Program-made: the position numbers and the translations under genes
Part shown: in pieces, positions 42,440 to 64,000 of the stretch
Layout: every line of letters starts with the position of its first letter
Position numbering within the stretch: the first letter of the stretch is position 1
The notes under the pieces: model-generated
What the model saw: the letters and a program-made list of their open reading frames with translations, nothing else
What the model was told of the DNA's origin: nothing
The model's database searches: none
Source: Atopobiaceae bacterium
GTDB taxonomy: Bacteria; Actinomycetota; Coriobacteriia; Coriobacteriales; Atopobiaceae
NCBI GenBank assembly: GCA_017545665.1
Contig: JAFWKQ010000034.1
Location: forward strand, 26,302 to 90,301
Direction of reading: 5' to 3'
Length of the DNA: 64,000 nucleotides

Positions 42440-42452
42440 AATACCCTTCCCG

Positions 42453-46596: not shown

Positions 46597-46629
46597 AGGC
46601 TTGCTAAACCCGCGTTCCGTCGTCTTCGC

Positions 46630-47130
46630 CTACACGCAACGCACGAGCGCAAGGTAGGATTCGTGACTTATGCCGGCCTTTGCCATGGCAGCATCGATGT
46701 CCAGGGGCGTCTCTCTTGCAAGTGGCGGCTTAAGCGCCTCGGCTTCTTCCTGGCTTCCCTTGAAGTTTTCGCTTGAGAGCCCAAGGAACACGTTAGGATC
46801 GGTTATGGAGCCGCTCTTCTGGAAGTCAAAGATAAGAGCATGCGAGAACATGTTCGCACGTCCAAGCCTGTCAAGCAGGCCATACTTACTTCGAATGGCA
46901 TACACGTACGCGCCGTCGCCATATAGCTCATAAAGGTCCAACACGTTGCCCTGCTCGTCGGTCATGGCACCCTGAATCGTTGAGTTGACGTTCTGCAGTT
47001 TGGTGCAAGTGCCAAGAACGTCCGACGGAATGCCAGGACTCACCGCAACAGCCTGCCAGCCAGAGCTCACCGTTCCGCCAAGGTTCACCTCAGCGTTCGT
47101 ATAGCAGCATTGAAAGTATTCGTTCGTCAT
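46630..47130 (-). CDS. Uncharacterised protein, proximal part (166 aa) ending at an in-frame TAG
   Basis: GGGGAG lies 7 nt before ATG 47130. The product MTNEYFQCCYTNAEVNLGG…SGWQAVAVSPGIP… has the same frame as 44602..46596. Confidence 0.55.
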   Translation of the reverse strand: MTNEYFQCCYTNAEVNLGGTVSSGWQAVAVSPGIPSDVLGTCTKLQNVNSTIQGAMTDEQGNVLDLYELYGDGAYVYAIRSKYGLLDRLGRANMFSHALIFDFQKSGSITDPNVFLGLSSENFKGSQEEAEALKPPLARETPLDIDAAMAKAGISHESYLALVRCV

Positions 47131-47171
47131 ATGACTACTCCCCTTTTAGGCTATCCTGCATCTTGATTGAC

Positions 47172-48725: not shown

Positions 48726-48739
48726 CCTACTCCTATTCG

Positions 48740-49411
48740 TTACACCAGTCGGATGCCCGCATTTCGCGAAAGCACTTCGATCCTCTTGTCCGTCTTTACG
48801 TATATGCCGTCATGCCCAACCGCATAGTCAATGGCGTCCTGCGTAAGAGGCACCTCTATGTTGCCCACGCGATAGTACAAGTCACCTGTGGTGTAGCCCT
48901 CCCCGACGGAGCGAGAGAAGCTCATGCGCCAAAAGCCCGTGTCCACCGTTTGCTTGCGAAAACGCCCCTGCACGCGCGTGACCTTTTGCAACTGCACGTG
49001 TATCTCTACGGGAATGTCTTGCCACGCGCGAATCATGCCCTTTGTGCGTGACTCGAAGACTTTGTAGGTATCTCCCAGGCGCTGGAGGGCGAACACCGTA
49101 TACGTGCAGGCCTCGCCGTTAAGCGGGCAACCGCCGATCTCGGTGGCGGGCACAATGCGCGCATAGACGCCTTCCATGACTTCCGTGTAGCTACCAACTA
49201 CCGGTTCGTTTTGGTTGCAAGCGCTCACGAGGGCGGAGCTGCCCGACTCGTCGGGATCGAGCAAGCCCATTGCGGGAGTTCCAAAGGGAGTCTGGACTAC
49301 AAGCGTTTCCATTCCCGCAGGATGCTCCCACGCCAGCTTTCGCGTCCGGGAGTCCCTGTGCAGGTTCGTTGCGTAGAACACCCCGTCATAGGGCGCGTAT
49401 TCAAATCGCAT
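48740..49411 (-). CDS. Uncharacterised beta-rich 223-aa protein
   Basis: GAGGGAAGG lies upstream of ATG 49411, only 4 nt after the stop of the preceding gene. No recognisable motif. Confidence 0.55.
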   Translation of the reverse strand: MRFEYAPYDGVFYATNLHRDSRTRKLAWEHPAGMETLVVQTPFGTPAMGLLDPDESGSSALVSACNQNEPVVGSYTEVMEGVYARIVPATEIGGCPLNGEACTYTVFALQRLGDTYKVFESRTKGMIRAWQDIPVEIHVQLQKVTRVQGRFRKQTVDTGFWRMSFSRSVGEGYTTGDLYYRVGNIEVPLTQDAIDYAVGHDGIYVKTDKRIEVLSRNAGIRLV

Positions 49412-49415
49412 GCGA

Positions 49416-51299: not shown

Positions 51300-51387
51300 A
51301 TTAAATCTACCCGCCTTCAACGGTGGCACCGACGTTGCGCACATCATCGATGCCACCAGTCTTTGTTTCGGCTACCCCTCTTGGCAC

Positions 51388-54300
51388 CTAGATTCCGTTT
51401 TCCATGCAGAACAGTCTGAACTTGTCGTTAAACGTACCCACGAACTCCAATATCTCGGCACTCTCGGGGAAGGTGTTGGCAATCTGCGCCCAAGCGTTAA
51501 TACGGTTTTCGTCGATATTGCCCTTCAACGTGGTTCCCGTTTCGATTATCTGGGGCGAGTCCGCATTGTACAGATCCTCAACCTTCTTCTTTATGGCAGC
51601 CTTGTCGGCGGGATCGAGCTCCTTGTAGTTGAGGAAAGCCTGGTAGATGGGAATCCTGCCATAGGGGAACTCCGGGCCGAACTTCGAGAGCGTGATGTCG
51701 GTAGTAATGCCATGCTCAATGCGATGGTAGATTACCAAACGTCCTCCATAGGAAATGACGCCTGTGAAGAGTGCCTCGCAGAAGTCGGCCGCGTCCTGGT
51801 TTCCAACGCCCACGGCTTGGATGCGATCCTCGAGCGCCTTCTTCGCGGCGGCTGCTGCGTTGCGCACCTCGTCAATCTGATCGAGTATCTGGCTAACCAG
51901 AATCTGATAGGCCGGGGCATATACGAAGTGGTCCACGAACATGCGACGCTTGACCTCTGGATCGGTTGGTCCGTCGTCCATGAAGCTCGAGCCGCTGTAC
52001 TCCATTTGCAGATTGGACGCGGCATCAAGCGCAGACAGCGCCTGTTGGGCGTCGGCAATTTGATTGGGACGCTGTAGCTGCCCAACAAGCTGCTCGCACG
52101 TTGCGACGGCATTCCTCAACGCTTCGAGCGACTCGTCCGTCGGCTTGAGGATCCTGCGCGTGGAGTCAAACAATCCGGCGGCTTCCGCCCGATCAAAGAG
52201 CTCGCGGGCTGCCATTACGTTTTCCCGCACTTGGTGCGGAACCATGTCAAGACGCACCAAGCTCTGCGGAGTCAGCGGCGGAAGCTTGCGCCAATCGTCA
52301 AACACCATGCCCGGTATTGGCTTGCCCTCATAGAAATGTGTGCCGGGAACGGGCGTCACCTCAAAGTAGGAGTTCTCGTACTCATTGCAGTTGTTGTAGG
52401 CCGAAAGAGGCAACGCCGCAGAGCACGACATTACGTAGATGCGATCCGTAAGCGCACTCACCTTGATCTTGTAGTCCTCATCCACCGCATTGAGCCTCTC
52501 GGCTGCCTTGCGGACGGGCTCAGACGTATCTGGGACAGAGAGGAACGCCATGGTAGAGGCCTGATCCTCGCTCCACACGGTGCCGTTGAAGTGGAACAGG
52601 GGACGAGCGCGTTCCTTGAGCTTTACCATCCAGTCGCTGTACACGCGATTGGTAAGCTCCTCGTTGTTGTCCGTGTCATACTTGTCCTTGAGGAACGAGG
52701 TGATGGAGCGGCTGGCAAACTCGCCAAACGCCGTCTCGACGAAGAACTTCGTCACGGCCCTGCAGATTCTGTTCTCGTCCTCTTGCAGCCACTCCGCATC
52801 GTCTGCGAGAAGTGCACCCATAAGCGCACTGAACATGCCGGGCACGCTCACGTTCGCAATCTGAGTGTCCATGGAGGCCTTGAGCTCGTCGATGCTCATG
52901 AGCGGCATTGCGAACGCATCCTCAACCGTCGCCTGTCGCTCCGACGCAAGTACGTCCGCGTTCTCCTTAAACGTATCGATGAGGTTCGACGTCACGCGTG
53001 CAAGGCGTGCGTAGTACCGAGCGTCCACATCCTCGATCTGCGACTTAAGAACACGCAGGGTCTTGTCCATCATGGCATAGCAATCCAAGGCGAGCAGGTG
53101 GATCTCCCAGGCATTGAACTCTTTCTTGTAGTCCTCGAACCGCTTCCGGTCGTTATCCATAAACCCGCGCTTTATGCGGCTGTGGAAGGTGTTCTTCGCG
53201 TTTTCGTAGTTCTGGCGGAAGACGTCGTCGTTGTAGTTCTCCGTATCCCAGCTGCGCTGGTTCTCGGTTATGAGTCCGTCTACGATATTAAGCATGTTGT
53301 GGCTCATGGCCGCAGAGAGCATACCGTGCGCAAAGATGGGCCCAAGCTCGACGTTTCGAATGATATCCACCATCGCATTGCGAATGCGGTTTATGAGCGA
53401 GTTCTCGTTGTCCTCACTCTGCATGCTGAGGGCGTTCTTCTCGGCAATGCCCTTCTTGTTTGCGGCGAGTCCGGCATAGTGCCTCACCATGCCTGCGCTG
53501 CCATCGCTGAGTGCGAGCTTGAAGTCGTCGCCCCAGTCTTCGAACATGAAGTCAAACCCCTGCTGCATCTCGGTCGTAAGACGGTTGTACAGCTGAGATA
53601 TGTCTCCTTCCCTGCTGTTGCCAAGGGAGGCCATGGCAAACACCTCGATGTCCCTCTTCGTGGGAAGGTTTTTGCCAACACCGCTAAACTTCCCAAACAG
53701 TTCCGAGGCAAGATAGGTGTTAACCTCGCGCAAGGGCAGACTCGCGCAGGCGGCTCCGATGACGCAGTAATTGAGATTGACACCGTAGCGCTTGGTGCCA
53801 TCGCCCATGTTTACGCAGTTCGTGAAATTGGAGAGCTGCGACTCCATGGTAAAGCCCTCGCTCTTGGTGAGGAAGTCCATAACGTACTCCGCCGTAACGT
53901 TCATGGCGTATTCGTACGCCTTGGGCACGACGTTGTTGTTCGTATCGGTGGCGCACACCAGGTGGCAAAGGTCGACGGGCATCGTATCCCACTCGATCTG
54001 GGTGCCCTGGTAGTTCTGGACGAACGCACCGCCGTTCTCCTTAAGCTGCATGCAGTAGTCGAGCTCCTGCATGGCAGCATAGCCGTTGCGGGGGATGTAT
54101 GCGCGAACCTTACCGTTTGAGTACGGGATGCGAGAGAGGTTTACGTCAGGTAAGAAAAAGTAGCCAAAAATGGTTACGTTCCCTACCTTCTGCGCAATGT
54201 GGCGGACTATGTAGCACACATCCAGGAAGGTGCCCGAACCCGTGCCACCGCTCAGGCCACTGAAGATGTGCACGTAAACCGTGGGGTTGGTGAGCCCGCT

Positions 54301-54825
54301 CTTGGCAGCATTGATCTCCTGCTCGATCCTGTTTGCAAACCGGTTGGACTTTGTCATGAGCATGTAGCGACCAACCTGGCGAATGCCGCCAGCGCCAGCC
54401 ACGGTGAGGTCGCCCGCCTTGATGTCCTCATAGCGCAGCCAGTTGAGCTCCCTGAGGTCGGCCAGGGCGAGCTTGTTGGAAAGGTCCCTCTTAACGTGAC
54501 CGTTGGCAATGGAGAAGTACTCGGTGTCGCTCAGCGCGAGGAGCGAGTCGGCACGCCCCTCCTCTTCGGATCCGGAGATGCCACGGCTCTTCTGGTCGGT
54601 GTCTACGCCAAGAAAGCGGATGTGGTCGTATGTGGGAACAATGGCATCCGGGTCGTCGGGCTTCAGGCGAGAGTGAACCTGCGTCTTAATGGTTCGAAGA
54701 CAATCGACGCCCGTACCGCCCAAACCGATGAGCAGATTGGCCGCATTGGGCTCCTGATCGGCCTGCTGCTGCAAGGAGACTATTCCTCCACCCGCGCTCA
54801 GCAAAAGCTTTGAGTAAACTGCCAT
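51388..54825 (-). CDS. Giant tubulin/FtsZ-superfamily protein (FtsZl-1 / Pfam 'Tubulin like' type)
   Basis: 1145 aa. The N-terminal GTPase domain has LLIGLGGTGVD (T1-like), GAGGIRQVGR and the tubulin signature SGLSGGTGSGTFLD. About 800 aa of helical extension follows. GAGGAAGG lies upstream of ATG 54825. Confidence 0.8.
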   Translation of the reverse strand: MAVYSKLLLSAGGGIVSLQQQADQEPNAANLLIGLGGTGVDCLRTIKTQVHSRLKPDDPDAIVPTYDHIRFLGVDTDQKSRGISGSEEEGRADSLLALSDTEYFSIANGHVKRDLSNKLALADLRELNWLRYEDIKAGDLTVAGAGGIRQVGRYMLMTKSNRFANRIEQEINAAKSGLTNPTVYVHIFSGLSGGTGSGTFLDVCYIVRHIAQKVGNVTIFGYFFLPDVNLSRIPYSNGKVRAYIPRNGYAAMQELDYCMQLKENGGAFVQNYQGTQIEWDTMPVDLCHLVCATDTNNNVVPKAYEYAMNVTAEYVMDFLTKSEGFTMESQLSNFTNCVNMGDGTKRYGVNLNYCVIGAACASLPLREVNTYLASELFGKFSGVGKNLPTKRDIEVFAMASLGNSREGDISQLYNRLTTEMQQGFDFMFEDWGDDFKLALSDGSAGMVRHYAGLAANKKGIAEKNALSMQSEDNENSLINRIRNAMVDIIRNVELGPIFAHGMLSAAMSHNMLNIVDGLITENQRSWDTENYNDDVFRQNYENAKNTFHSRIKRGFMDNDRKRFEDYKKEFNAWEIHLLALDCYAMMDKTLRVLKSQIEDVDARYYARLARVTSNLIDTFKENADVLASERQATVEDAFAMPLMSIDELKASMDTQIANVSVPGMFSALMGALLADDAEWLQEDENRICRAVTKFFVETAFGEFASRSITSFLKDKYDTDNNEELTNRVYSDWMVKLKERARPLFHFNGTVWSEDQASTMAFLSVPDTSEPVRKAAERLNAVDEDYKIKVSALTDRIYVMSCSAALPLSAYNNCNEYENSYFEVTPVPGTHFYEGKPIPGMVFDDWRKLPPLTPQSLVRLDMVPHQVRENVMAARELFDRAEAAGLFDSTRRILKPTDESLEALRNAVATCEQLVGQLQRPNQIADAQQALSALDAASNLQMEYSGSSFMDDGPTDPEVKRRMFVDHFVYAPAYQILVSQILDQIDEVRNAAAAAKKALEDRIQAVGVGNQDAADFCEALFTGVISYGGRLVIYHRIEHGITTDITLSKFGPEFPYGRIPIYQAFLNYKELDPADKAAIKKKVEDLYNADSPQIIETGTTLKGNIDENRINAWAQIANTFPESAEILEFVGTFNDKFRLFCMENGI

Positions 54826-54909
54826 TTTTTAAAATCCTTCCTCGTCTGTTGTCATCGGACGTCAACTACCAATGGAAATGCTTGGGGCTGTCCCTTCTCG
54901 GCCGTCTTC

Positions 54910-57099
54910 CTAGGTTCCAGGCCTACGGGGAGGACGCCTTTGCGCTCCCTGTCCTCCGCCAAAGCCACCACCGGATTTCTGCGATCCCTGCTGATTCATG
55001 CGACCTGCGCCTCCGCCGAAGCCACCGGCAGAACGGTTCTGCGCACCCTGCGTGTGCTTGACGCCACCGCCGAAGCCACCAGCACCGCCAGTGCCCGCCC
55101 GCATGACGCTTTCAAAGCGGATGTTCAAAGTCTTTCCAGGCTCCACGACCACTACCACGGGGGCGCCGCTGTCGATGCGCACCTCTTTGGTCGAATTGCC
55201 GTTGCACGACACGGGGTTGTTCGTGCGGAGGAGTACGTAGCGATCTCCCGTTGCCTGGAAATACGACTTTACGTAGTCGAGGCCCGTGGGGCTGAGCTCA
55301 AAGCGACTGAGCGGGAGACGGCCGCGGCTTCCCTTTACCGTCTTGGGTGCAGAATGGACGCCATCCACCGCGGATTCCACGGTAATCTCGCCGCGGAATG
55401 GCTTCCTCAGAGCGATCCTAAAGAGGATGATGAGCACAATGATGGCAACTATTGCCGCCACGCCTATACCAATGAGCGCCATCAGACCAACGTTGTGGCT
55501 GGTAACGACAATCTCCACGTCGCAATACTTGCCTAGGCTGTCCACCGCACGCACGGTAAAGCCGCCCTTGCTCATGCTGAATTTGGACAAGGTGAGCTTG
55601 TTTCCGTCTACGGTGTAATCGCCATCCATGAACGAGCTGGAGATTACCTTGTACTGCAACGCGTCACCCTGCTCATCGGTTGCGAGCTTTCCAAGATCGA
55701 TCGTAAGGGAGTTGTCCTTGAAGGGCCATATCATAACGGTCTCTTCAACCGGATTGGCAACCGGGACGGGAGCGGTGTTGTTCTTCTCGGCTTCGGTGGA
55801 GGCCTTAGAGCTTACGGCCATGCTGCCGATGATGTCGGAGGTGCGGTCGAGGTGGTTCCCCGTTACGTGAACCCTGAAGTTGTATGCTCCCTCGGGAAGC
55901 TTATGCGCCACCTCGAAGTGATCGCCCTCTAGCTTCATGGGCACGGACTCAACCGGGGCGTTGAACGAGTCCAGAACCTCCAGAGCCGCCTCATAGCCCA
56001 CGTATTGGTCCGTCTTCGCCCTGCCGGCCTTCCCCGCCGTAAGGAACGCCCTCACCGTAAGGGGATCATTGGGGTTGATGGGACCTTCCGCGGGCTGCAA
56101 TTCGCTCTCCACGCCCAAGTCGCTGTTGAACACCATGTTGATCTTCACGGCATCGCCTGGCACGCCTTCGGTTACGAGCTTCCACGTACCTGGCACAACG
56201 TCTGCTATCTTAAGGAGCGTGAACGTATTTGACTCAACGGCCTCGGGCGTCGACGCGCTCCCGTCCGGCCGAGTCACCGTAAACGACTTTGCCTTGCCAT
56301 AGATAACGATGTTTATCTCTTCGACGCCGATGCCCGGTACGTCAAAGGTTGTCTCGAGCTTGCCGTCGGCGGAAAACTTCCCATCGCCAATGGACACGGT
56401 GGAGGTCCCGTATATGAGATTGTAGAAGGTGTTGAATACGTCCTGCAGATCTTCAGCCTTTTTTACCTCGGCAAACTCGCCGCCCGTGGCACCAGATATC
56501 TGTTGCATCTCCGAAATATCCGCGGTATTGTCGGCATTCAGGCACACGCTATATATTTTGATCTTATTGTCACGCGCCGCCTGCACGCTTTCTGCCTTCT
56601 TGTCCAAAGAGGCTTTTAGATCGTCCGCATTGGGCAGGTCCGTGTTACCGTCGCTCAGAAGCAGGATTACGGATGGCAGGTTTTTGTCTCCGTCCTTTTT
56701 GATCATGTTTACGGCAGTGTCGAGCCCCGCGCCAATGTTTGTGTCACCGCGGGCCTCCACGGAGGCAAGCTTGTCCACGACTGCCCTCTTGTCGGCTTGG
56801 CTCTTTACGGGCGCGAGGTCCTGCTGCGCCTCCACGGCAGTCGTAAACACGACTCCACCAAGTTCGTTACCGCTATTTGCCAATAAGTTCGTAAACTGAT
56901 TTATGGCCTCGAATCTTAGGCCATCAGGATCGGTTGTTTTCATGGAACCACTGGCATCGAGCACCATAACAACGTTAAACCTATTGTTCGCAGGTGCAGA
57001 CCCTCCCTCCGCACGGGCTAGCGCTAGCGGTAGCATCACCAACGAAAGCGTTGCCGCGACCACGGCACATAGGAACTTACGCAACGTTTTTGTTCTCAT
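54910..57099 (-). CDS. Secreted/transmembrane von Willebrand factor A protein with Ig-like spacers, a single TM and a cytoplasmic FHA-like segment plus Gly-rich tail
   Basis: GGAGGAAG lies 5 nt before ATG 57099. The signal peptide is KFLCAVVAATLSLVMLPLALARA. The vWA MIDAS motif is VVMVLDASGSM…GDTNIG…LLLSDGNTD. The TM is LMALIGIGVAAIVAIIVLIILF. The tail is …GGAGGFGGGVKHTQ…GGFGGGAGRMNQQGSQKSGGGFGGGQGAQRRPPRRPGT. Confidence 0.82.
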   Translation of the reverse strand: MRTKTLRKFLCAVVAATLSLVMLPLALARAEGGSAPANNRFNVVMVLDASGSMKTTDPDGLRFEAINQFTNLLANSGNELGGVVFTTAVEAQQDLAPVKSQADKRAVVDKLASVEARGDTNIGAGLDTAVNMIKKDGDKNLPSVILLLSDGNTDLPNADDLKASLDKKAESVQAARDNKIKIYSVCLNADNTADISEMQQISGATGGEFAEVKKAEDLQDVFNTFYNLIYGTSTVSIGDGKFSADGKLETTFDVPGIGVEEINIVIYGKAKSFTVTRPDGSASTPEAVESNTFTLLKIADVVPGTWKLVTEGVPGDAVKINMVFNSDLGVESELQPAEGPINPNDPLTVRAFLTAGKAGRAKTDQYVGYEAALEVLDSFNAPVESVPMKLEGDHFEVAHKLPEGAYNFRVHVTGNHLDRTSDIIGSMAVSSKASTEAEKNNTAPVPVANPVEETVMIWPFKDNSLTIDLGKLATDEQGDALQYKVISSSFMDGDYTVDGNKLTLSKFSMSKGGFTVRAVDSLGKYCDVEIVVTSHNVGLMALIGIGVAAIVAIIVLIILFRIALRKPFRGEITVESAVDGVHSAPKTVKGSRGRLPLSRFELSPTGLDYVKSYFQATGDRYVLLRTNNPVSCNGNSTKEVRIDSGAPVVVVVEPGKTLNIRFESVMRAGTGGAGGFGGGVKHTQGAQNRSAGGFGGGAGRMNQQGSQKSGGGFGGGQGAQRRPPRRPGT

Positions 57100-57584
57100 C
57101 GTTCTTCCTCCATCGCTCCCATGAAGCCTGCCACGGAGGCAGGAATAACGGCAATTTGCGTAGCACGTGAGCTGCAGCGGCAAATATGTGCGTCTTAGCT
57201 GCGTTTATTGCTACTTTTAGGTGTGAGATTCCGTACCTGTTGCAAACCACAAACACGCATTATTGTTTAACGCAAAACCAAAGTAAACTAAAAGTAGGCT
57301 TAAGGGTTGTACAACGTCTGCCAATGACACGCGCTTGCAATAATAGGGTCAAGACTAATATCGTGTATACATAGGATATCATATACTTTACAATATCATT
57401 CTACTATGCATAATACTTATCACATCATGCGAACGCCATTGCGCGCCTCTTCTTGAATTATATTTGAATCGATCCTCACCTTTCGTCCGCAAACACGTTG
57501 TGCAACGAGTACACGTTATTTTTTGCATAGTATACGTATTGATATACCATTTATAGCGGGCAACCAGTAAGGGAAAGGATCAGC

Positions 57585-58754
57585 ATGGGTATTGAGAACT
57601 TTATGAGAGTCTCGTACGCAGCAACCACCAACAAGGGAAACGTGTTTGTTCGCGTTTTCTCTGCCATTGTCTACGACGATAAGCGGCCTTCGTTTCTTAG
57701 CCTGCATTACCAGGGGGAGCCGATTCCTCTAGAAAAAGTGCAGTCCGCATCCGAGGACCTCATGCGACTTTCCTTTAGCTATGGAGAATGGATCGTCTTC
57801 GAACTGCTTTCGCTTGATGAGCTCCTTGACAAATTATGGGAGCAGGGCGTAGGCCAAGGCCTCGTATACCATAACCCCAAAACCATCACTGCCTCCGACT
57901 TGGGAAAGTGGTATTACGGCACTACCCTACGCTACGTTAATGACGGCGAGCCGATAACGCTCAATGGCTTAAAGATCGCTTTCAACGAGGTGCTTGACGG
58001 TAACGCATGGACTCGCGGCGACTCATACATGTGCGTAAATGGCGAATCGGGGCTAGCGGGAATCGTGTATGGCACCGACAACGAGGATGACGATGCCGTA
58101 CGGCTTGCGGCATACATTAACGATTTGCATGGAACCGGTTTTGGTGAGCCTGGATTTGCTGGCGTGGACGACATTGGTTGCAGCGGCGGCACGGGAAGCA
58201 GGAGCCAATTCGACATGAGCGTTTTGACCCACGCCGTTCTGTCGCGCACCTCCCCCAACTCCCCTTGGTTCATAACAGCGGCTCTTGCGAACGAGAGGTA
58301 TGCCCAAATCGTGAGGTCTTTCCGCGAGGAGGAGGGCCGCGAGGCAATAGTCGTAAGAATCGGCACAAAAGCGGCACCGAGTATGCCGCGTGGCGTTGAC
58401 GTCCCACACTATAAACTCGTCGTAAAGCTCATTCCCGAAAGCATCCAAGGCAGGGAGCACCTGCAAGAGTATATGGCAACGCAGGTATCGGCCCTAATTA
58501 AGACCGCCAAGTCAAAGGGCCTGGACGTCATCCCCAATCCGAGCGACCCCATTGTGGGGCAACGACTAATCGATTCCGAGAATCCGCACGCCTATATGTA
58601 TCGCGTGCTCTCCACATTGCCATACGAGACGCTCGTCAATCTATACGAGGCATCGCTTGCCGTTGGCATGAACGAGCTAACGAACAAACATGCCATGGAA
58701 GCGGTCTTTGCTTCGGCAAGAGCGCTCATCGGCTTGATGTCTGACGACGAATAG
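57585..58754 (+). CDS. Uncharacterised 389-aa protein, first gene of the divergent plus-strand operon
   Basis: ATG 57585 lies after AAGGGAAAGGA. No recognisable motif. A 485-bp AT-rich region precedes it. Confidence 0.55.
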   Translation: MGIENFMRVSYAATTNKGNVFVRVFSAIVYDDKRPSFLSLHYQGEPIPLEKVQSASEDLMRLSFSYGEWIVFELLSLDELLDKLWEQGVGQGLVYHNPKTITASDLGKWYYGTTLRYVNDGEPITLNGLKIAFNEVLDGNAWTRGDSYMCVNGESGLAGIVYGTDNEDDDAVRLAAYINDLHGTGFGEPGFAGVDDIGCSGGTGSRSQFDMSVLTHAVLSRTSPNSPWFITAALANERYAQIVRSFREEEGREAIVVRIGTKAAPSMPRGVDVPHYKLVVKLIPESIQGREHLQEYMATQVSALIKTAKSKGLDVIPNPSDPIVGQRLIDSENPHAYMYRVLSTLPYETLVNLYEASLAVGMNELTNKHAMEAVFASARALIGLMSDDE

Positions 58755-58843
58755 TTTCTCCAATGCGCAACCGTCCTTAGGGGCGCCCCACGTTCAAAGG
58801 AAATGCATGCAAGCCGAAGAAGACAACGTCCAAGGAGGCAAGG

Positions 58844-59518
58844 GTGGCTAAGAGATGCGTCTGTCCACACTGTGGAAAACCGAATGAGAGCGGACTCTTC
58901 TTCTGCAGCACATGTGGAGCGCCAATTGGCTTTGACGACGACGCCAAGGATTTCGTAGCCTTGGCGAACGAGCCTGTGCCCGGCAAAAGGAAACGTGCGC
59001 GGATTGACGGAATACCGTTCGCCCTCATCGTTGTTTTGACGATCGTCGGACTCTTCTGTTTGTATGAGCTGCTCTTACGTCCTAAGGCACAGCCCGCAAA
59101 TATGACGAGTGGCAGTCAAGTCCAAGAGAGCGAGGCCCGAGGTTCCTCCGTTGGCAATTCTTTTGACATCGCATGCATACAAGGCTTCTGGGGTTCGAAG
59201 CCCTTGGGAAATGGAGCATACGATGAGGTCCTTGTGGTGAAGAAGGACGAAATCTATGTGGCGCGTGGCAATGGCAATGTCCAGAAGGCAATACCGGTCG
59301 TGTCCAGAAACCAATGCGAGTACTGCCCCAACGGCATAGAAGGGTCAAATGGAAGGCCAGGCTGGCTCATCCACGGCCTCGACTGCTTTTTGTACGACAA
59401 CGATCAGAGGACGCTCTACAAAGTGGACGCATACAAAGACGAGCCTTCCCTACAAGACGATTCCCCATACGTGCGACTCGAAAACGAGCCCATGTGGACA
59501 ACGGAGGTACGCAAGTAA
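58844..59518 (+). CDS. Zinc-ribbon / single-TM / extracytoplasmic-domain protein
   Basis: AGGAGG lies 5 nt before GTG 58844. The product has CVCPHCG…CSTCG, the TM FALIVVLTIVGLFCLYELLL, and an outer domain (IQGFWGSKPLGNGAYDEVLVVKKDEIYV…) paralogous to that of the ORF at 63556. Confidence 0.62.
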   Translation: MAKRCVCPHCGKPNESGLFFCSTCGAPIGFDDDAKDFVALANEPVPGKRKRARIDGIPFALIVVLTIVGLFCLYELLLRPKAQPANMTSGSQVQESEARGSSVGNSFDIACIQGFWGSKPLGNGAYDEVLVVKKDEIYVARGNGNVQKAIPVVSRNQCEYCPNGIEGSNGRPGWLIHGLDCFLYDNDQRTLYKVDAYKDEPSLQDDSPYVRLENEPMWTTEVRK

Positions 59519-60069
59519 TGCACATAGTCAGATTGTTCATTGCCTCATCCATCGTTGAGTTCAAGCACGAGCGCAAGCGCATTGGCGCGCTCGTATCGGA
59601 TGCCAACAGTCTTTGCATGCCATATGGCACCGTGCTCGTTGCCGACTTTTGCGAGGACCAATCCAGCGCGCTTGCCCTTTCGCGCAAGCAGGAGGAGTAC
59701 AACCAGCTCATTCGCCAAGATCAGCTCTTCGTGCTCCTCGTGGGAAGCACCGTGGGAACATACACCATGGAAGAGCTCGTGGTGGCGCTAGATTCGCAGG
59801 AAAACAACGGGATTCCGCAAGGGGTGCTCGCCCTCTGCGGCCCGGCAGTAGGCCACCTCGCAAGCGCATCGAGCAATCGCATGCTACGTGTGGAGAATAC
59901 CCCGGGCGCCGAAGTCGCCTCCCTGCTCGACGGGCAAAGAGGGTGTACGCTTAAGCGCTTCCAAAATGCAGACGAGGCCGTTGCCCATATATTCGATTGC
60001 TTGCACGAAATGGGTCTTGTGCAGCCGAAGCTCTGCATCGAAGGTGGAAGGGTGCGACAAGGAGCATGA
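59518..60069 (+). CDS. Stand-alone TIR-like / DUF4062-like domain protein (183 aa)
   Basis: ATG 59518 overlaps the upstream TAA (TAATG). MHIVRLFIASSIVEFKHERKRIGALV…QEEYNQLIRQDQLFVLLVGSTVGTYTMEEL follows the DUF4062 pattern (FISS…ER…, then …cD.f..l.G..yG). Confidence 0.55.
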   Translation: MHIVRLFIASSIVEFKHERKRIGALVSDANSLCMPYGTVLVADFCEDQSSALALSRKQEEYNQLIRQDQLFVLLVGSTVGTYTMEELVVALDSQENNGIPQGVLALCGPAVGHLASASSNRMLRVENTPGAEVASLLDGQRGCTLKRFQNADEAVAHIFDCLHEMGLVQPKLCIEGGRVRQGA

Positions 60070-62429
60070 ATGTAATCCATATCCACATTGCAGCTGACGT
60101 CGTTGAGCTCGGTGCCGACATAGAGGAGCTCCGTTCCTTTGCGAACACCCTCTCCGCACGATTCGCAGCTCTAGGATTCGTCTTCTCGATTACGGTGGAG
60201 GGCGAATCGGATGAGCCTCTCTCGCAATGCGAGCATTTGTATGTGCTCATGGGCCACAACGCAACCAACGCCACAATAGATGCGTTCAACAGGGGTAACA
60301 ACCTGTTCAGGCAGGCGGGCGCGCCTTTTGTCCACACATACTTTAGCCAGCTCGCACAAGATGACCAACCTACCGAGCGCGTGCGAGCCTTCATGGACCG
60401 CCTCGCAACGGAGCTTGGGCACTACTGGTCCACCTATACGCACATCGACACCGTAAAGCTCAACATGCTCTTTGAGCTGAGCGCGGGCTCTCACTCCGAC
60501 GCGCTTTCCATAGAGGATGGAAAAGCCAGACTGTTCGGAGCTGATGTTTTGGACCTGGGCCGCACTCCCTTGTACGCAAACAACGTCGAGCTCAAAAGCA
60601 TGCGTGGGGAGCTGGATGAGCTCAACGCGCAATTTGTGGAGCTAGCAGCGCAAGCTCCGCACGACCATCTAAGGAAACGCGATCTTATTGCGCTTGACCA
60701 AAGACGCAATGAGCTGCTGGACGCCATTCATCAAACAGAAAGGGACGTTCTTGACCTTGGTGCTAGCATGTCGCAAATGCGCAAGAGCGCCTCGGCAACA
60801 TGGCGCGTTCAAAGGGCATCCGAGCTTCTTGATGCAGGTGCGTACGAAAGGGCGCAGGACATTCTTCAGGACAAGACGCGCGAGGACGGCCTAAGGCCCA
60901 AAACCGGCGCAGGCACGCACACAGACTCCCTCAAAGACGACCTTGGGCGTGGAGAGGCGCTTTCCCTCAGCGGGGCACGTCAACTTGAGGGATGGATGGC
61001 AGAGCAGCGACTGCTCATACACACCATATTGTCGCAAGGCCGCACGCCTCCAAACGTCCAGAAGGTGTGCGACCTTTACGAGCAGGCAGTGGCGCGATCG
61101 GTTAGGCGCAGGGTCGACACTCGAATCGTATTCGAGTACGGCACCTTCTTGCAGCAAATAAACAGGCACTCGCAAGCCAAGGCAATGTTTTCCCTCTACC
61201 TTCGGATTCTTCTTGCCAACAAGAATCCACGCGATCGTCGACCGGCCTACGTTCTCCTCAGCTTGGCCAATACGTTGGTGGATGGCCGCGAGTACACGGA
61301 GGCACTGCCAATCTTGGACGAGGTAATACAAGAGCGCAGGAAAGAGGCGTGCATCGACCCCTCTCCCGGCAATCGAAGTGACTTGGCAACCGTCCTCATG
61401 GCACAGGCGGAGCAACTCAGAGCCATGGCCAGCCACAAGCAGGCGCTCGAAATCATAGACGAGGCATCGGAACTGCTGCATACGCTGTATGACAAGAGCC
61501 ACGATGCCTACATAGACGACTTGGTTCAGGCTCTCATTGCCAAGGCGAGCACACTCAGAACACTCAATAGGGCTAACGAAGCACTCGGCGTCGGCAACGA
61601 GGCCGTCACCCTCTACAAGCCACACGCAAAGGCGAACCCACACAATACGCACGCTCAAGCGGTGTACGCGCTGGCCATGTCCGAGCTCGCCGAATCCTAC
61701 CATTACGCAGGATTCGAAGATGAGCGATTCCACAAGCAGTCTGAGGACTTGTATTACCAGGCGCTTTCCATCCTGCGTGAACTTGCGGCGAAGGAGCCCG
61801 CCACTCATCAACCGCAACTCTGCGTCATCCTAAACAGGTTGGCGGCCGTGCTTAAGGACGACGAGAAGGATGCGGAGGCAGAGGGCCTTCTTCGTGAACA
61901 CGTACGCCTTTCGCGCGCGTTGGCACTAGCCGAGCCCAAGGCATATTTGCATTCCTACGCCGCCTCTCTTGCCTCTTACGTCAACCTCCTTACCGACTCG
62001 CTCGATTCAAAGACGGGACAGAAGAACCTGCTGCTGCGCCGTGACGAAGCACGAGGATGTGGAAACGAGGCATTAATGGTGTATAGGCGCCTCTCTCGCG
62101 AGCAGCCAGGGGCATATTTGCCCGAGCTCGCCAATACGCTCACGTCATGCGCCAAATGCGCACCCATCTATTCGTTCCAACATCAAGTCTACAACGACCT
62201 CAATCGCGAGGCCCTGAGCATATATGAGAAGCTCGCGCAAAGGGAGCCCCTAGCGTACCTGCCCATGGTAATTGACACAATCGATGCGATCCTCCAAAAA
62301 GATCTGCTCGTGCCGCTAACGCCCTCCCGTATCCCACAGGTCGTACGTGAGGTAGGGTATCTCCGCTCCCAAAGGGCTACGGCACGCAATTGCTATAGGG
62401 AGCTTCTGGCACAGGACTCAAAGGAGTAG
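60066..62429 (+). CDS. TIR-like/DUF4062-like N-domain + coiled coil + KLC-type TPR repeat protein (787 aa)
   Basis: ATG 60066 overlaps the upstream TGA (ATGA). The N-domain is MNVIHIHIAADVVELGADIEELRSFANTLS…CEHLYVLMGHN…HYWSTYTHIDTVKLNMLFEL. The C-terminal ~450 aa are repeated TPR_12-like units (…EALMVYRRLSREQPGAYLPELANTL…, …EALSIYEKLAQREPLAYLPMVIDTI…). Confidence 0.72.
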   Translation: MNVIHIHIAADVVELGADIEELRSFANTLSARFAALGFVFSITVEGESDEPLSQCEHLYVLMGHNATNATIDAFNRGNNLFRQAGAPFVHTYFSQLAQDDQPTERVRAFMDRLATELGHYWSTYTHIDTVKLNMLFELSAGSHSDALSIEDGKARLFGADVLDLGRTPLYANNVELKSMRGELDELNAQFVELAAQAPHDHLRKRDLIALDQRRNELLDAIHQTERDVLDLGASMSQMRKSASATWRVQRASELLDAGAYERAQDILQDKTREDGLRPKTGAGTHTDSLKDDLGRGEALSLSGARQLEGWMAEQRLLIHTILSQGRTPPNVQKVCDLYEQAVARSVRRRVDTRIVFEYGTFLQQINRHSQAKAMFSLYLRILLANKNPRDRRPAYVLLSLANTLVDGREYTEALPILDEVIQERRKEACIDPSPGNRSDLATVLMAQAEQLRAMASHKQALEIIDEASELLHTLYDKSHDAYIDDLVQALIAKASTLRTLNRANEALGVGNEAVTLYKPHAKANPHNTHAQAVYALAMSELAESYHYAGFEDERFHKQSEDLYYQALSILRELAAKEPATHQPQLCVILNRLAAVLKDDEKDAEAEGLLREHVRLSRALALAEPKAYLHSYAASLASYVNLLTDSLDSKTGQKNLLLRRDEARGCGNEALMVYRRLSREQPGAYLPELANTLTSCAKCAPIYSFQHQVYNDLNREALSIYEKLAQREPLAYLPMVIDTIDAILQKDLLVPLTPSRIPQVVREVGYLRSQRATARNCYRELLAQDSKE

Positions 62430-62432
62430 GCC

Positions 62433-63521
62433 ATGAACCTAGTGGAAATACGCATTGCCACCTCCGAAGAGGAACTCGGAGCCGACCTGGATGAGCTTCG
62501 CGCGTTTGCGAACCAGCTTACCGCTCGCCATGCAAGCAAAGGCGTTGTCTTCAACGTGCGCTTGCTCGGCGAGGATGAGGACCCTGCGACGTATGAGCAG
62601 CTGTACGTTTTGGTTGGCAACAGCATGCCTCAAGCGCTACGTACCGAATTCAATAGCTCATACGACGCGTTCTGCACTATGGGCAGCCCATGCATCCATA
62701 CGTATTTCAAAGACGTGGATGCACGCGAGCCTGTCGAAACAGCAGTGCGCGACTTCATGCGCATGCTAGACGAGGACATAAGCCACTACTGGTCCACGTA
62801 CAGCAATGTGGACACAATCAAGCTGGACATCCTTATGGAATATGCGCGCTCCACAGACTCCGCGGCGATCTCGTTCCGCGATGGATCCGCCAAGCTCTAC
62901 GATGAGGAGGCGCTGGAGCTCTCGCACGTACCTCTGTATGCAAACAACAACGACCTGCAAGCATTGCGCGCGGAGCTCGATGGTTTGCAGTCAGAGTACG
63001 ATGAGGCCCTCGCTCTTGGCACACGCGAGCAGCCCTCGCCTTCCCTCGTACAAATCAACCAGCGCCTGGATGAGCTAAGGGAGCAGCTCCATCAAATTGA
63101 GGACGATGTCTTCGGGCTGAGCAGCCGCATAGTGGAGCTTCGCTACAATCCTCGAGCCACCTGGCGCGTTCGCGAGGCATCGCGCCTGCTTGACGCCGGC
63201 GACTATAAGGGCGCACAGGCCATATTGTCTGATTCGACAAGGGCCATGGAAGCCGACCATGCCGAGGAGCTCATGAAGGCAGGCTCTAGAATCATCGAAA
63301 GTTGGATTGAGAGCCAACGTCACCTGGCTCAAGAGTCAAAACTGGAAGAGGCGCTTTTGCTCTACGAGAAGGCATGCAGGGTTTCCGAGGAACACCTCGT
63401 TGGCACCGAAGTGCTCATCGAGTATGCGGAGCTGCTTCAAAACGTCAATGGACGAAAAGACGAGGCAGCGTATTGGAGCGATGCCTACAAGAGAATCACG
63501 AGCTCGATGCAAACGGATTAG
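62433..63521 (+). CDS. Paralogue of the preceding protein: same N-domain and coiled coil, short TPR remnant (362 aa)
   Basis: AAGGAG lies 6 nt before ATG 62433. MNLVEIRIATSEEELGADLDELRAFANQLT…YEQLYVLVGNS…HYWSTYSNVDTIKLDILMEY aligns residue-for-residue with 60066..62429 over about 300 aa. Confidence 0.7.
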   Translation: MNLVEIRIATSEEELGADLDELRAFANQLTARHASKGVVFNVRLLGEDEDPATYEQLYVLVGNSMPQALRTEFNSSYDAFCTMGSPCIHTYFKDVDAREPVETAVRDFMRMLDEDISHYWSTYSNVDTIKLDILMEYARSTDSAAISFRDGSAKLYDEEALELSHVPLYANNNDLQALRAELDGLQSEYDEALALGTREQPSPSLVQINQRLDELREQLHQIEDDVFGLSSRIVELRYNPRATWRVREASRLLDAGDYKGAQAILSDSTRAMEADHAEELMKAGSRIIESWIESQRHLAQESKLEEALLLYEKACRVSEEHLVGTEVLIEYAELLQNVNGRKDEAAYWSDAYKRITSSMQTD

Positions 63522-63555
63522 CCTACACCACTCATCCTGGAGGAAGGACCAAGTC

Positions 63556-64000
63556 ATGCCCAACAATCAAAACAGCCAAGATCAGCCTTCGAGCCCCACC
63601 CACAACGTGCGCACCGACTTCTCTTCCTACGATGCGGCGCGAATGGCGCATAAGGCAAGTGCGCAGACCTTTTCCGAACGCCATGGGCGCCTGGGAGGTA
63701 AAAAGGCCCTTGTGATTGCCGTCATGGCGGTTGTTTGCGTTGTGGCCATCGTGCTATGCACAACCGTCCTGCATAGGCCAGCCGGCTTAACCAATTCCTC
63801 CGCCGACACTCTGTCATCCCAAATGTCAACCGAGTCTCTGAGCACAAGTCCTGGGGTTCTTAACCCAAAGGCCCTCGACGGATGGTGGGCAAGCAGGGAA
63901 ATCATGGTGGATGGGACGGAGGGCGACTATACGACCGCCTTCCTTATTAAAGACGGCGTGGTGTACGAAGGAGGGCCAAATGGACTGTCGGGTGCCAGCT
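63556..64000 (+). CDS. Membrane-anchored protein, partial (runs off the window end)
   Basis: GGAGGAAGG lies 7 nt before ATG 63556. The open frame runs to position 64000, so it is absent from the ORF track, which needs a stop. The TM is ALVIAVMAVVCVVAIVLCTTVL. The outer segment LDGWWASREIMVDGTEGDYTTAFLIKDGVVY resembles 58844..59518. Confidence 0.5.
   Translation, partial: MPNNQNSQDQPSSPTHNVRTDFSSYDAARMAHKASAQTFSERHGRLGGKKALVIAVMAVVCVVAIVLCTTVLHRPAGLTNSSADTLSSQMSTESLSTSPGVLNPKALDGWWASREIMVDGTEGDYTTAFLIKDGVVYEGGPNGLSGAS

What the first reader, a model, noticed from the sequence alone, without database searches (positions are those of the whole stretch)
57100..64000. Divergent operon with three consecutive TIR-like/DUF4062-like N-domain proteins (two with TPR arrays) and zinc-ribbon membrane proteins
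A 485-bp AT-rich spacer lies across from the vWA gene. Beyond it, six plus-strand genes are chained by overlapping stops and starts (TAATG at 59516-59520, ATGA at 60066-60069, a 3-nt gap at 62430-62432).

Three successive products (183, 787 and 362 aa) begin with a related ~140-aa flavodoxin/TIR-like domain: strand-(A/S)(A/S)-x-x-E…, then an acidic patch, then …L(Y/F)VL(M/V)G…. The two larger ones add a coiled coil and kinesin-light-chain-type TPR repeats, but no NTPase (STAND) module. Two single-pass membrane proteins with a shared outer domain flank them (58844..59518 and 63556..>64000).

TIR-like/DUF4062 + TPR proteins are typical sensor/effector scaffolds of conflict systems. Their divergent pairing with the tubulin/vWA/GTPase operon suggests one larger functional locus.
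Basis: partly seen in the sequence, partly recalled or inferred. Interest (0 to 1): 0.68.

Follow-up and report, generated by a model that had tools for sequence, protein, structure and literature searches.

The report
Split NADase-type phage-defence gene cluster
Three neighbouring genes encode one small enzyme of the recently described DUF4062/NIR family of TIR-like NAD-degrading anti-phage proteins plus two larger paralogous scaffold proteins whose copy of that domain has lost its conserved active-site residues. This points to a phage-defence system in which enzyme and sensor are separate proteins, and it is probably not part of the tubulin/vWA operon next door.

Summary
Six plus-strand genes follow a 485-bp AT-rich spacer, with the stated overlaps (TAATG, ATGA, 3-nt gap).

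The 183-, 787- and 362-aa products (g3, g4, g5) share an N-terminal domain. This is invisible pairwise for g3 (BLASTP E>0.5) but clear through a family profile (g3 E=7e-27; g4 and g5 about 1e-74).

The domain is a divergent DUF4062/NIR domain. Three 2026 preprints showed DUF4062 to be a TIR-like NADase effector of anti-phage systems.
- The family consensus passes Pfam's DUF4062 threshold.
- 25 of 29 relatives match DUF4062.
- The g3 model (pLDDT 84.6) matches TIR-APAZ, DNPH1, BcmB and nucleoside deoxyribosyltransferases.

g3 keeps all six conserved residues scored, including the putative catalytic Glu86. g4 keeps 0 of 6 and g5 keeps 2 of 6, and both lack a 13-residue segment.

In related loci, every scaffold with a degenerate domain and enough flanking DNA (10 of 10) sits beside an intact short NIR gene. 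Four proteins fuse the two. Intact single-gene relatives have no such partner.

The family is large: 894 clusters, from gut Firmicutes and Coriobacteriaceae, with a coiled coil and TPR array but no STAND NTPase.

None of about 55 related loci carries tubulin, vWA or GTPase homologues, so "one larger locus" is not supported. The window is a defence island. This is a new variant of a known kind.

The parts
57100..57584 (.). 485-bp AT-rich intergenic spacer between the divergent vWA gene and g1. It holds promoter-like hexamers on both strands.
   Evidence: GC is 42.5% against 54.3% for the window. Promoter-like sites lie at 57366-57414 (+) and at 57369-57340 and 57287-57259 (-). These are consensus matches only.
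57585..58754 (+). g1, 389 aa, first gene of the plus-strand run. Its function is unknown and its membership of the system is uncertain.
   Evidence: No hit in Pfam, NCBIfam, PHROGs, PADLOC or by PDB sequence. No homologue by tblastn in related loci L006-L027. An 89-bp gap separates it from g2.
58844..59518 (+). g2, 224 aa: N-terminal cytoplasmic zinc ribbon, one transmembrane helix (about residues 57-78) and an outer domain of about 140 aa shared with g6. Its stop overlaps the g3 start (TAATG).
   Evidence: Zn-ribbon families match at E 6e-5 to 3e-3, all below Pfam cut-offs. CPHC and CSTC motifs and a hydrophobic peak are present. Outer domain versus g6: E=1e-14. Not conserved next to family genes elsewhere.
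59518..60069 (+). g3, 183 aa: stand-alone, intact DUF4062/NIR-type TIR-like domain and the predicted catalytic subunit. The putative catalytic Glu86 is encoded at 59773-59775.
   Evidence: Family profile 80 bits, E=7e-27. Pfam DUF4062 E=0.005, below threshold. The AF2 model has pLDDT 84.6 and a five-stranded alpha/beta fold. Foldseek matches TIR-APAZ, DNPH1, BcmB and NDTs. 6 of 6 key residues are kept. 40% identical to the N-terminal extra domain of fusion protein P0014, E=2e-20.
60066..62429 (+). g4, 787 aa: degenerate NIR-like domain (about residues 1-105, nt 60066-60380), conserved linker and coiled-coil stalk (about residues 106-275), then a divergent KLC-type TPR array (about residues 330-787). 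Predicted sensor/scaffold.
   Evidence: Family profile E=1e-74. 0 of 6 key residues, with a 13-residue deletion of the CED...RKQEEYN segment. TPR_12 and TPR_10 hits are weak. No Walker A.
62433..63521 (+). g5, 362 aa: a truncated paralogue of g4 with degenerate NIR-like domain, stalk and about 80 helical residues, but no TPR array. Predicted adaptor or regulator.
   Evidence: 37% identity to g4 residues 1-381, E=3e-75. 2 of 6 key residues, with the Glu86 equivalent kept.
63556..64000 (+). g6 (cut by the window end; 232 aa in L001): a single-pass membrane protein with the g2-type outer domain and no zinc ribbon. Last gene of the run.
   Evidence: It ends convergently against a minus-strand zinc-ribbon gene (L001 11819-12532).

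Best explanation
g3, g4 and g5 form a split member of a large, uncharacterised branch of the DUF4062/NIR family of TIR-like NADases. The typical protein of this branch is NIR domain, helical or coiled-coil stalk, then TPR array, with no STAND NTPase.

Here the functions are divided among three proteins.
- g3 is the free catalytic NIR domain.
- g4 is a TPR sensor whose own NIR-like domain is a pseudo-enzyme.
- g5 is a TPR-less copy of the g4 N-terminal half.

Proposed mechanism. The pseudo-NIR domains of g4 and g5 dock g3, by analogy with the NIR-NIR dimers of Swarozyc, and keep it inactive. A phage protein binding the g4 TPR array reorganises the stalks, and g3 assembles into an active oligomer. 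This depletes NAD+ and aborts the infection.

Shown here: domain identity and fold; which copies keep the conserved residues; the strict co-occurrence and fusion of intact and degenerate copies; the defence-island context.

Inferred: NADase chemistry (taken from characterised DUF4062 proteins), physical g3-g4/g5 interaction, the trigger, and abortive infection.

g1, g2 and g6 are co-transcribed neighbours that are not conserved with the family. They are probably lineage-specific accessories or unrelated genes.
For: Family size and architecture. A full HMMER search with the g4/g5 N-terminal 280 aa found 894 cluster representatives at E<=1e-3 and 539 at E<=1e-10. Most are 650-1000 aa with strong TPR_10/TPR_12 arrays.

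Domain identity.
- The family consensus matches Pfam DUF4062 at 25.1 bits (gathering threshold 24.7), E=2e-5.
- 25 of 29 relatives match DUF4062, best E=3.9e-7, and no other family recurs.
- The g3 model has pLDDT 84.6.
- It hits TIR-APAZ/SPARTA (TMq 0.51-0.58), DNPH1, BcmB CMP N-glycosidase (TMt 0.70-0.74) and viral nucleoside deoxyribosyltransferases. This is the same spectrum reported for DUF4062 in bioRxiv 10.64898/2026.09.04.749371.

Function of DUF4062. It is an experimentally shown anti-phage NADase with a catalytic Glu (KpSwz E97, PsAvs2 E108, Vulcan E98) and, in Eva01, a putative catalytic Glu E87-Y88 plus F11. g3 has the matching F7 and E86.

Intact versus degenerate copies.
- Key-residue scores are g3 6/6, g4 0/6 and g5 2/6.
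- In fusion proteins P0014, P0016, P0081 and P0094 the first domain is intact and the second degenerate.
- Ten of 10 loci with a degenerate scaffold and usable flanks have an adjacent intact NIR gene: the window, L006, L010, L025, L028, L029, L030, L031, L039 and L058.
- About 35 loci with an intact single gene have no second NIR gene.

Defence context. Family neighbours or fusions include TIR_2, CAP12-PCTIR_TIR, Pkinase+Card1_endonuc, Abi_2 and SLFN_AlbA_2. The window itself carries DpnII, a PLD-helicase-DUF3427 protein, AIPR, DUF4145-UvrD, a DUF2726 helicase and a GAP1-N2 system.
Against: - g3 alone is below Pfam's DUF4062 threshold (17.4 bits against 24.7).
- No profile search matched a solved DUF4062 structure by sequence.
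- The top Foldseek hits are generic flavodoxin-like azoreductases, and TM-scores are moderate at about 0.5.
- This branch has its own conserved residues (C45-E46, K57-Q58, Y61-N62), so the substrate could differ from NAD+.
- Some DUF4062 proteins (NWD1, NWD2, NPHP3) showed no NADase activity.
- No interaction, expression or phage data exist.
- PADLOC models find nothing.
- Two degenerate relatives (L062, L015) showed no partner, but both lie on short or truncated contigs.
- Related loci are not phylogenetically independent, so the 10/10 count overstates the statistical weight.
Confidence: 0.55

Rival explanations
1. The six plus-strand genes and the divergent tubulin/vWA/DO-GTPase/GAP1 operon are one functional system, with the NIR/TPR proteins acting as its effectors or sensors.
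For: The two are divergently arranged across one 485-bp AT-rich spacer with promoter-like sites on both strands. Both are conflict-system-like. GAP1-N2 systems are described as having variable linked components, often membrane-associated. g2 and g6 are membrane proteins.
Against: None of the 22 related family loci searched by tblastn (L006-L027) contains a homologue of vWA, Tubulin_2, the 646-aa and 223-aa proteins, DO-GTPase2 or GAP1-N2. The minus-strand operon matches the described actinobacterial tubulin theme of GAP1-N2 systems on its own. DUF4062 does not occur in that paper. The rest of the window is a string of unrelated defence genes, so adjacency is expected without a functional link.
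Confidence: 0.08
2. g3 is an autonomous single-gene DUF4062 defence protein of the Evangelion or Vesta type. g4 and g5 are non-enzymatic TPR/coiled-coil proteins with a separate role, so the adjacency reflects gene duplication and decay, not a complex.
For: Short DUF4062 proteins with small auxiliary regions defend on their own (Evangelion; VstA). Stand-alone g3-like genes exist. g3 matches the family profile only over residues 1-101.
Against: 10 of 10 degenerate scaffolds keep an intact NIR gene beside them, often overlapping or translationally coupled. The same pair occurs as fusions in four proteins. Intact single-gene scaffolds never have an extra NIR gene. The degenerate domains are still well conserved as a fold-level match (E about 1e-74), which argues for a retained structural role.
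Confidence: 0.15
3. The intact domain is a glycohydrolase or transferase acting on another nucleotide (CMP or dNMP hydrolase, deoxyribosyltransferase), or it makes a signalling nucleotide that activates a separate effector. It does not deplete NAD+.
For: The structural matches to DNPH1, BcmB CMP N-glycosidase and NDTs are as good as those to TIR-APAZ. This branch has its own invariant residues. PsAvs2's domain was first annotated as a CMP hydrolase.
Against: Every DUF4062 domain with demonstrated activity hydrolyses NAD+ (or NADP+) to ADPR and nicotinamide. No obvious signal-receiving effector gene is conserved next to the family.
Confidence: 0.17
4. The cluster has a housekeeping or signalling function unrelated to defence, for example a TPR scaffold for cell-envelope processes acting with the g2/g6 membrane proteins.
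For: g2 is translationally coupled to g3. Many zinc-ribbon membrane proteins surround the cluster. There is no PADLOC hit and no hit in viral contigs.
Against: g2 and g6 are not conserved with the family. The distribution is patchy and paralogue copy number varies. There are TIR_2 fusions and Abi, TIR and Card1 neighbours, and the cluster lies in a defence island.
Confidence: 0.05

Closest known systems
Vulcan (NIR/DUF4062 fused directly to HEAT repeats; Le Mouellic et al., bioRxiv 10.64898/2026.09.04.749371)
   Same: An N-terminal DUF4062/NIR domain joined to an alpha-helical repeat sensor without a STAND NTPase. It is an anti-phage NAD+ depletion system dependent on a catalytic Glu (E98), which matches E86 in g3 and in intact family members.
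   Different: Vulcan is a single protein with HEAT repeats. This family has a conserved linker and coiled-coil stalk and KLC-type TPR (or Sel1) repeats. In this locus the catalytic domain is a separate gene and the scaffolds carry degenerate domains. Sequence relationship to Vulcan was not tested, because no sequence was at hand.
Swarozyc (KpSwz; Osinski et al., bioRxiv 10.64898/2026.05.01.722283)
   Same: A DUF4062 TIR-like domain followed by a helical stalk and a C-terminal sensing (AUX) domain. NIR-NIR dimers are held inactive and are activated when the sensor binds a phage protein. This provides the mechanistic template used here.
   Different: The KpSwz AUX domain is an HTH/winged fold that binds the portal. 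Here the sensor is a TPR array. Swarozyc is a homo-oligomer of one protein. Here an intact and two degenerate NIR domains lie on three proteins.
Evangelion (Eva01) and Vesta (VstA): short DUF4062 proteins
   Same: Their size and layout resemble g3: a DUF4062 core with N-terminal aromatic residue and E-Y/F motif, plus a short C-terminal extension.
   Different: They work alone or with a dispensable phosphatase. g3-type genes in this family are tied to pseudo-NIR scaffolds.
NIR-containing Avs/NLR-like proteins, and eukaryotic NPHP3, NWD1/2 and TEP1
   Same: DUF4062 plus C-terminal repeats. Family members give weak hits to the NPHP3 domain (PF25022) and TPR_NPHP3.
   Different: Those proteins have a central NACHT/STAND NTPase. 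g3, g4 and g5 and their family have none.
Paired sensor/executor TIR proteins (for example plant RRS1/RPS4 NLR pairs); comparison from general knowledge
   Same: A catalytically dead domain paralogue regulates or presents an active one.
   Different: The protein families are unrelated. This is an analogy only and was not tested.

Membership tests
DUF4062 / NIR (Pfam PF13271) | Sequence match to the Pfam model at or above the gathering score (24.7 bits) | tested here: inconclusive
   g3 alone scores 17.4 bits, E=0.005, below the cut-off. g4 and g5 give no hit. The consensus of the family to which g3, g4 and g5 belong scores 25.1 bits, E=2e-5. 25 of 29 relatives match at E<=0.01, best 3.9e-7. 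Several relatives carry precomputed PF13271 hits.
DUF4062 / NIR (Pfam PF13271) | TIR-like/NDT-like alpha/beta fold with a five-stranded parallel sheet | tested here: met
   The g3 AF2 model has pLDDT 84.6 and pTM 0.81, with alternating beta and alpha elements. Foldseek hits TIR-APAZ 8i88/8isy/8ffi (TMq 0.51-0.58), DNPH1, BcmB (TMt 0.70-0.74) and viral NDTs. Generic flavodoxin-like folds score similarly. g4 and g5 were not modelled.
DUF4062 / NIR (Pfam PF13271) | Conserved catalytic Glu (E-Y/F motif at the start of helix C) and N-terminal aromatic residue | tested here: met
   Met for g3: F7, and E85-E86 within 'YTMEEL'. E86 and F7 are invariant in alignment A2. Not met for g4 (H at position 7, D-A at positions 85-86). 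Partly met for g5 (R at position 7, T-E at positions 85-86). The mapping to Eva01 F11/E87 and KpSwz E97 rests on motif and position, not on a direct alignment.
DUF4062 / NIR (Pfam PF13271) | NAD+ glycohydrolase activity | not testable with these tools
   This needs biochemistry.
Canonical TIR domains (PF01582, PF13676) | Sequence match to TIR models | tested here: not met
   g3, g4 and g5 give no TIR or TIR_2 hit. Only the structural resemblance exists. One relative (P0150) carries a separate genuine TIR_2 domain in front of the NIR-like domain.
Avs / NLR-like STAND defence proteins | Central STAND (NACHT/NB-ARC) NTPase with a Walker A motif | tested here: not met
   g1-g5 have no P-loop motif. 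Neither they nor ten relatives give NTPase Pfam hits.
Swarozyc | C-terminal HTH/winged AUX domain that binds the phage portal | tested here: not met
   The C-terminal regions of g4 and its relatives are TPR_10/TPR_12 arrays. Direct sequence comparison with KpSwz was not possible.
Vulcan | Single protein with an NIR domain fused to HEAT repeats | not tested
   No reference sequence was available. The architecture differs (TPR, coiled coil, split genes), but the logic is the same.
GAP1-N2-type GTPase-centric conflict system, tubulin theme (Kaur et al. 2020) | Co-occurrence of the component with DO-GTPase, GAP1-N2, tubulin and vWA genes | tested here: not met
   The neighbouring operon is such a system (description). 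None of the 22 related NIR-TPR loci searched by tblastn (L006-L027) contains any of its genes.

The most novel reading that the evidence does not exclude
A "one enzyme, several sensors" immune complex. A free NIR NADase is inert alone and is activated only by heterotypic assembly on the pseudo-NIR domains of paralogous repeat-bearing scaffolds (TPR, Sel1). This lets a cell swap or multiply sensors around a single executioner subunit, a bacterial counterpart of sensor/helper pairs in plant NLR immunity.

In this locus the TPR-less g5 would act as a brake or adaptor. The translationally coupled membrane proteins g2 and g6 might feed envelope signals into the complex.
Probability: 0.3. Interest if true: 0.65.

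Novelty: new variant of a known kind. Interest (0 to 1): 0.5.

Why it matters
DUF4062/NIR was recognised as an anti-phage NADase only in 2026, and the characterised systems are single proteins or STAND-containing proteins.

This locus points to a large STAND-less NIR-stalk-TPR branch in gut anaerobes (about 900 clusters at 50% identity). No studied member turned up in the three DUF4062 preprints read here or in PADLOC.

Within that branch there is a recurrent split form, in which the catalytic domain is a separate subunit and the sensor keeps a dead copy. If the heteromeric model is right, it gives a simple, testable case of pseudo-enzyme-mediated control of a TIR-like NADase. It would also explain how sensor paralogues (TPR, Sel1) can diversify around one effector.

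It also gives annotation pipelines a rule: a degenerate NIR-TPR protein predicts an adjacent intact NIR gene.

Tried and rejected
- Word-index homologue searches with g5 and g3 returned only themselves or a 94% copy. This wrongly suggested orphans. The full HMMER scan found 894 relatives.
- Single-sequence AF2 of g3 failed with pLDDT 32. It succeeded only with the family alignment.
- Profile searches of PDB sequences with A1 and A2 gave only chance hits: coiled coils, and a short vWF A1 stretch at E about 0.7.
- PADLOC, NCBIfam and PHROGs gave nothing meaningful for g1-g6.
- g1 has no match by PDB sequence.
- A viral-contig scan for the family found none.
- The organism could not be named. Only the sample origin is suggestive: the contig labels resemble those of ruminant gut MAGs.
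- Rejected: "TPR-S" and Csx1/Csm6 hints for g5 (E 0.15 and 0.03), a REase_II hint for g2 (zinc-ribbon region only), and an MliC hint for g1 (E=0.13).
- Considered whether g3 is a decayed fragment. Rejected because it has an intact ORF, a ribosome-binding site, 6 of 6 conserved residues, a confident fold and conserved counterparts in other loci.

Full report
**Observation**

The plus-strand run is as described. A 485-bp spacer (57100-57584) has GC 42.5%, against 54.3% for the window. It separates the vWA gene, whose real start is at 57099, from g1 (57585-58754, 389 aa). The following genes are:
- g2, 58844-59518, 224 aa
- g3, 59518-60069, 183 aa
- g4, 60066-62429, 787 aa
- g5, 62433-63521, 362 aa
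- g6, 63556 to the window end

The junctions TAATG (59516-59520), ATGA (60066-60069) and the 3-nt gap GCC (62430-62432) are confirmed, and each start has a GGAGG-like ribosome-binding site. The same contig was found in public assemblies. Locus L001 extends 10 kb further and shows g6 to be 232 aa and the last gene of the run. No terminator-like site beyond chance lies inside the run. Promoter-like hexamers occur on both strands of the spacer.

**Are the three N-domains related?**

g4 and g5 are obvious paralogues: 37% identity over about 380 residues, E=3e-75. g5 is in effect the first 381 residues of g4 without the TPR array.

The word-index protein search found nothing but the queries themselves. 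A full HMMER scan of 1.84 billion cluster representatives with the aligned g4/g5 N-terminal 280 residues found 894 relatives at E<=1e-3 and 539 at E<=1e-10. A profile built from 109 of these, leaving out g3, g4 and g5, matches g3 residues 1-101 without gaps at 80 bits, E=7e-27. It matches g4 and g5 at about 1e-74. The three proteins do share one domain. g3 is the copy closest to the family consensus.

**What is the domain?**

- The family consensus passes Pfam's DUF4062 threshold: 25.1 bits against 24.7, E=2e-5.
- 25 of 29 aligned relatives hit DUF4062 (best 3.9e-7), and nothing else recurs.
- g3 alone is sub-threshold at 17.4 bits.
- With the family alignment, AlphaFold2 gives a confident g3 model: pLDDT 84.6, pTM 0.81, five beta-alpha units plus a C-terminal hairpin. 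The single-sequence run had failed.
- Foldseek against the PDB returns flavodoxin-like azoreductases, TIR-APAZ of SPARTA (TMq 0.51-0.58), DNPH1 and the CMP N-glycosidase BcmB (TMt 0.70-0.74).
- Against viral models it returns mostly nucleoside 2-deoxyribosyltransferases.

This is the hit spectrum that Le Mouellic et al. report for DUF4062.

Three 2026 preprints bear on DUF4062 (renamed NIR); two demonstrate directly that it is a TIR-like NADase with a catalytic Glu that acts as the effector of anti-phage systems, and the Evangelion preprint proposes the same model. The systems are Swarozyc, Evangelion, NIR-Avs, Vulcan and Vesta. The N-terminal aromatic residue and the E-Y/F motif described there correspond to F7 and E86 of g3. 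Both are invariant in the alignment.

**Intact and degenerate copies**

I scored six conserved positions, in g3 numbering: F7, S11, R19, E46, Q58 and E86.
- g3 scores 6/6.
- g4 scores 0/6.
- g5 scores 2/6 and keeps the Glu.

g4 and g5 also lack 13 residues of the conserved "CED..S....RKQEEYN" segment. In the g3 model this segment is the loop after strand 2 and the start of helix B.

Of 157 domain instances among the representatives, 96 are 6/6 and about 45 are degenerate. Four proteins (P0014, P0016, P0081, P0094) carry two copies: an intact g3-like domain first, then a degenerate domain with stalk and TPRs. g3 is 40% identical to the first domain of P0014, E=2e-20.

Genomic contexts show the same pairing in trans. 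An intact short NIR gene (about 165-206 aa, or an NIR-coiled-coil gene) lies beside a degenerate scaffold in L006, L010/L027, L025/L026, L028, L029, L030, L031, L039 and L058. It is often overlapping or a few bases away. With the window this makes 10 of 10 cases with usable flanks.

Some clusters resemble this one closely.
- L029 has a 172-aa intact gene followed by 780- and 773-aa degenerate ones.
- L025 has four family genes, one of them with Sel1 instead of TPR repeats.

About 35 loci whose single family gene has an intact domain show no second NIR gene in the fetched flanks. Two degenerate relatives without a visible partner (L062, L015) lie on short or truncated contigs.

The loci are not independent samples, but the direction is uniform. 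It matches the fusions.

**Most likely mechanism**

The family layout is NIR domain, conserved linker, coiled-coil stalk and repeat sensor. This parallels Swarozyc, in which NIR dimers sit on helical stalks and are released from autoinhibition when the C-terminal sensor binds a phage protein. It also parallels Vulcan, an NIR-HEAT fusion.

I therefore read g3 as the catalytic subunit, g4 as a TPR sensor whose pseudo-NIR domain docks and controls g3, and g5 as a sensor-less adaptor or brake. The output would be NAD+ depletion and abortive infection.

Fold, residue conservation, pairing and context are shown here. Chemistry, interaction and trigger are inferred. Another nucleotide substrate cannot be excluded, because DNPH1, BcmB and NDT matches are as good as the TIR matches and this branch has its own invariant residues.

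**Surroundings and the "one larger locus" idea**

The minus-strand operon holds vWA, Tubulin_2 with a long helical tail, two unknown proteins, DO-GTPase2 and GAP1-N2. It fits the tubulin theme of GAP1-N2 GTPase-centric conflict systems described by Kaur et al. 2020, in its actinobacterial form. That paper does not mention DUF4062.

No homologue of any gene of that operon was found by tblastn in the 22 related loci searched (L006-L027), nor any homologue of g1, g2 or g6. The later loci (L028-L062) were screened only with the N-domain profile.

The rest of the window is a defence island. It holds DpnII, a PLD-helicase-DUF3427 protein, AIPR, a ResIII helicase, DUF4145-UvrD and an AAA_11/12-DUF2726 protein. 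Neighbours of family members elsewhere include TIR_2, CAP12-PCTIR_TIR, Pkinase+Card1_endonuc, Abi_2 and SLFN_AlbA_2. One relative has a TIR_2 domain fused in front. Adjacency of two independent systems is the economical reading.

g2 and g6 share an outer domain (E=1e-14), but only g2 has a zinc ribbon. g1 has no detectable relatives or domains. Their role in the system, if any, is open.

**Distribution**

Family loci come from MAGs of Lachnospiraceae, Ruminococcus, Oscillospiraceae, Eubacterium, Blautia, Faecousia, Marvinbryantia, Anaerovoracaceae and Coriobacteriaceae, and from human-gut and other metagenome assemblies. None was found in viral contigs. The window's own organism was not identified.

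**Verdict**

The domain interpretation is supported and sharpened. The link to the tubulin operon is not supported.

The domain family and its defence role are already known from 2026 preprints. New here are the large STAND-less NIR-stalk-TPR branch and, above all, the regular pairing of an intact NIR subunit with pseudo-NIR scaffolds. This is a new variant of a known kind, of moderate interest.

Noticed in passing
window 10116-32259: A string of defence-type genes upstream. DpnII restriction endonuclease (10116-11141, E=3e-95). PLD nuclease + ResIII helicase + DUF3427 (14299-17439). AIPR abortive-infection protein (18064-19761). ResIII helicase (20825-23419). DUF4145 + UvrD helicase (26724-28958). 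AAA_11/AAA_12 helicase + DUF2726 nuclease-like domain (29194-32259). The window is a defence island.
   Followed up: partly
window 40796-57099, minus strand: A complete-looking GAP1-N2-type GTPase-centric conflict system. It holds GAP1-N2 (46630-47130), DO-GTPase2 (47172-48725), 223-aa and 646-aa unknown proteins, Tubulin_2 with a roughly 750-aa helical tail (51388-54825), and a membrane vWA protein with a Gly-rich tail (54910-57099). Further unknown proteins and a Sel1-like protein lie upstream. It matches the actinobacterial tubulin theme of Kaur et al. 2020.
   Followed up: partly
L001 11819-14218 (just past the window end): Three more small proteins with an N-terminal zinc ribbon, like g2. 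Their lengths are 237 aa (minus strand), 291 aa and 179 aa. The 179-aa one is almost entirely PEPK repeats before a C-terminal hydrophobic segment. Function unknown.
   Followed up: no
L001 14344-20199; L022 8611-9780; L014 3010-4911: Downstream lie a 1144-aa TPR-like protein and a 750-aa protein with N-terminal membrane helices and no Pfam hit. Homologues of the 750-aa protein lie directly upstream of the NIR-TPR family gene in a Coriobacteriaceae MAG (L022, E=3e-12) and 5 kb from it in a Ruminococcus MAG (L014, E=5e-22). A RyR-domain protein lies near the family cluster in L029. This may be a further recurrent neighbour.
   Followed up: partly
L008 and L009, 8478-8480: An in-frame TAG interrupts an otherwise continuous NIR-stalk-TPR gene (the profile continues from position 154 to 157 across the stop). 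The truncated 159-aa product (P0154) has 24 member sequences and was seen on 4 contigs, inside a conjugative-element-like region with T4SS coupling proteins. It could be a pseudogene, read-through or recoding.
   Followed up: no
P0150 (957 aa); L011 5952-8504: Other architectures of the same NIR-like domain occur. One is a genuine TIR_2 domain (E=7e-21) fused in front of NIR-stalk-TPR. Another is an NIR-like ORF immediately after a fragmented LRR-Roc-COR gene. Several short relatives are named "internalin A", and one (P0214) carries a precomputed COR-B hit.
   Followed up: no
window 2489-5674 (-) and 36467-37786 (-): A 1061-aa protein with DUF4116 and a calcineurin-like phosphoesterase domain, and a GH5 cellulase (E=5e-65). 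The cellulase fits a fibre-degrading gut organism. Sample and contig labels (XIEF21-1; relatives from goat and buffalo stomach MAGs) suggest a ruminant gut origin.
   Followed up: no
method note (versus 26): The word-index homologue search returned only the query itself for g5 and did not even list its 37%-identical neighbour g4. The exhaustive HMMER scan found 894 relatives. Apparent orphan status from the first tool is unreliable for coiled-coil or TPR proteins.
   Followed up: yes
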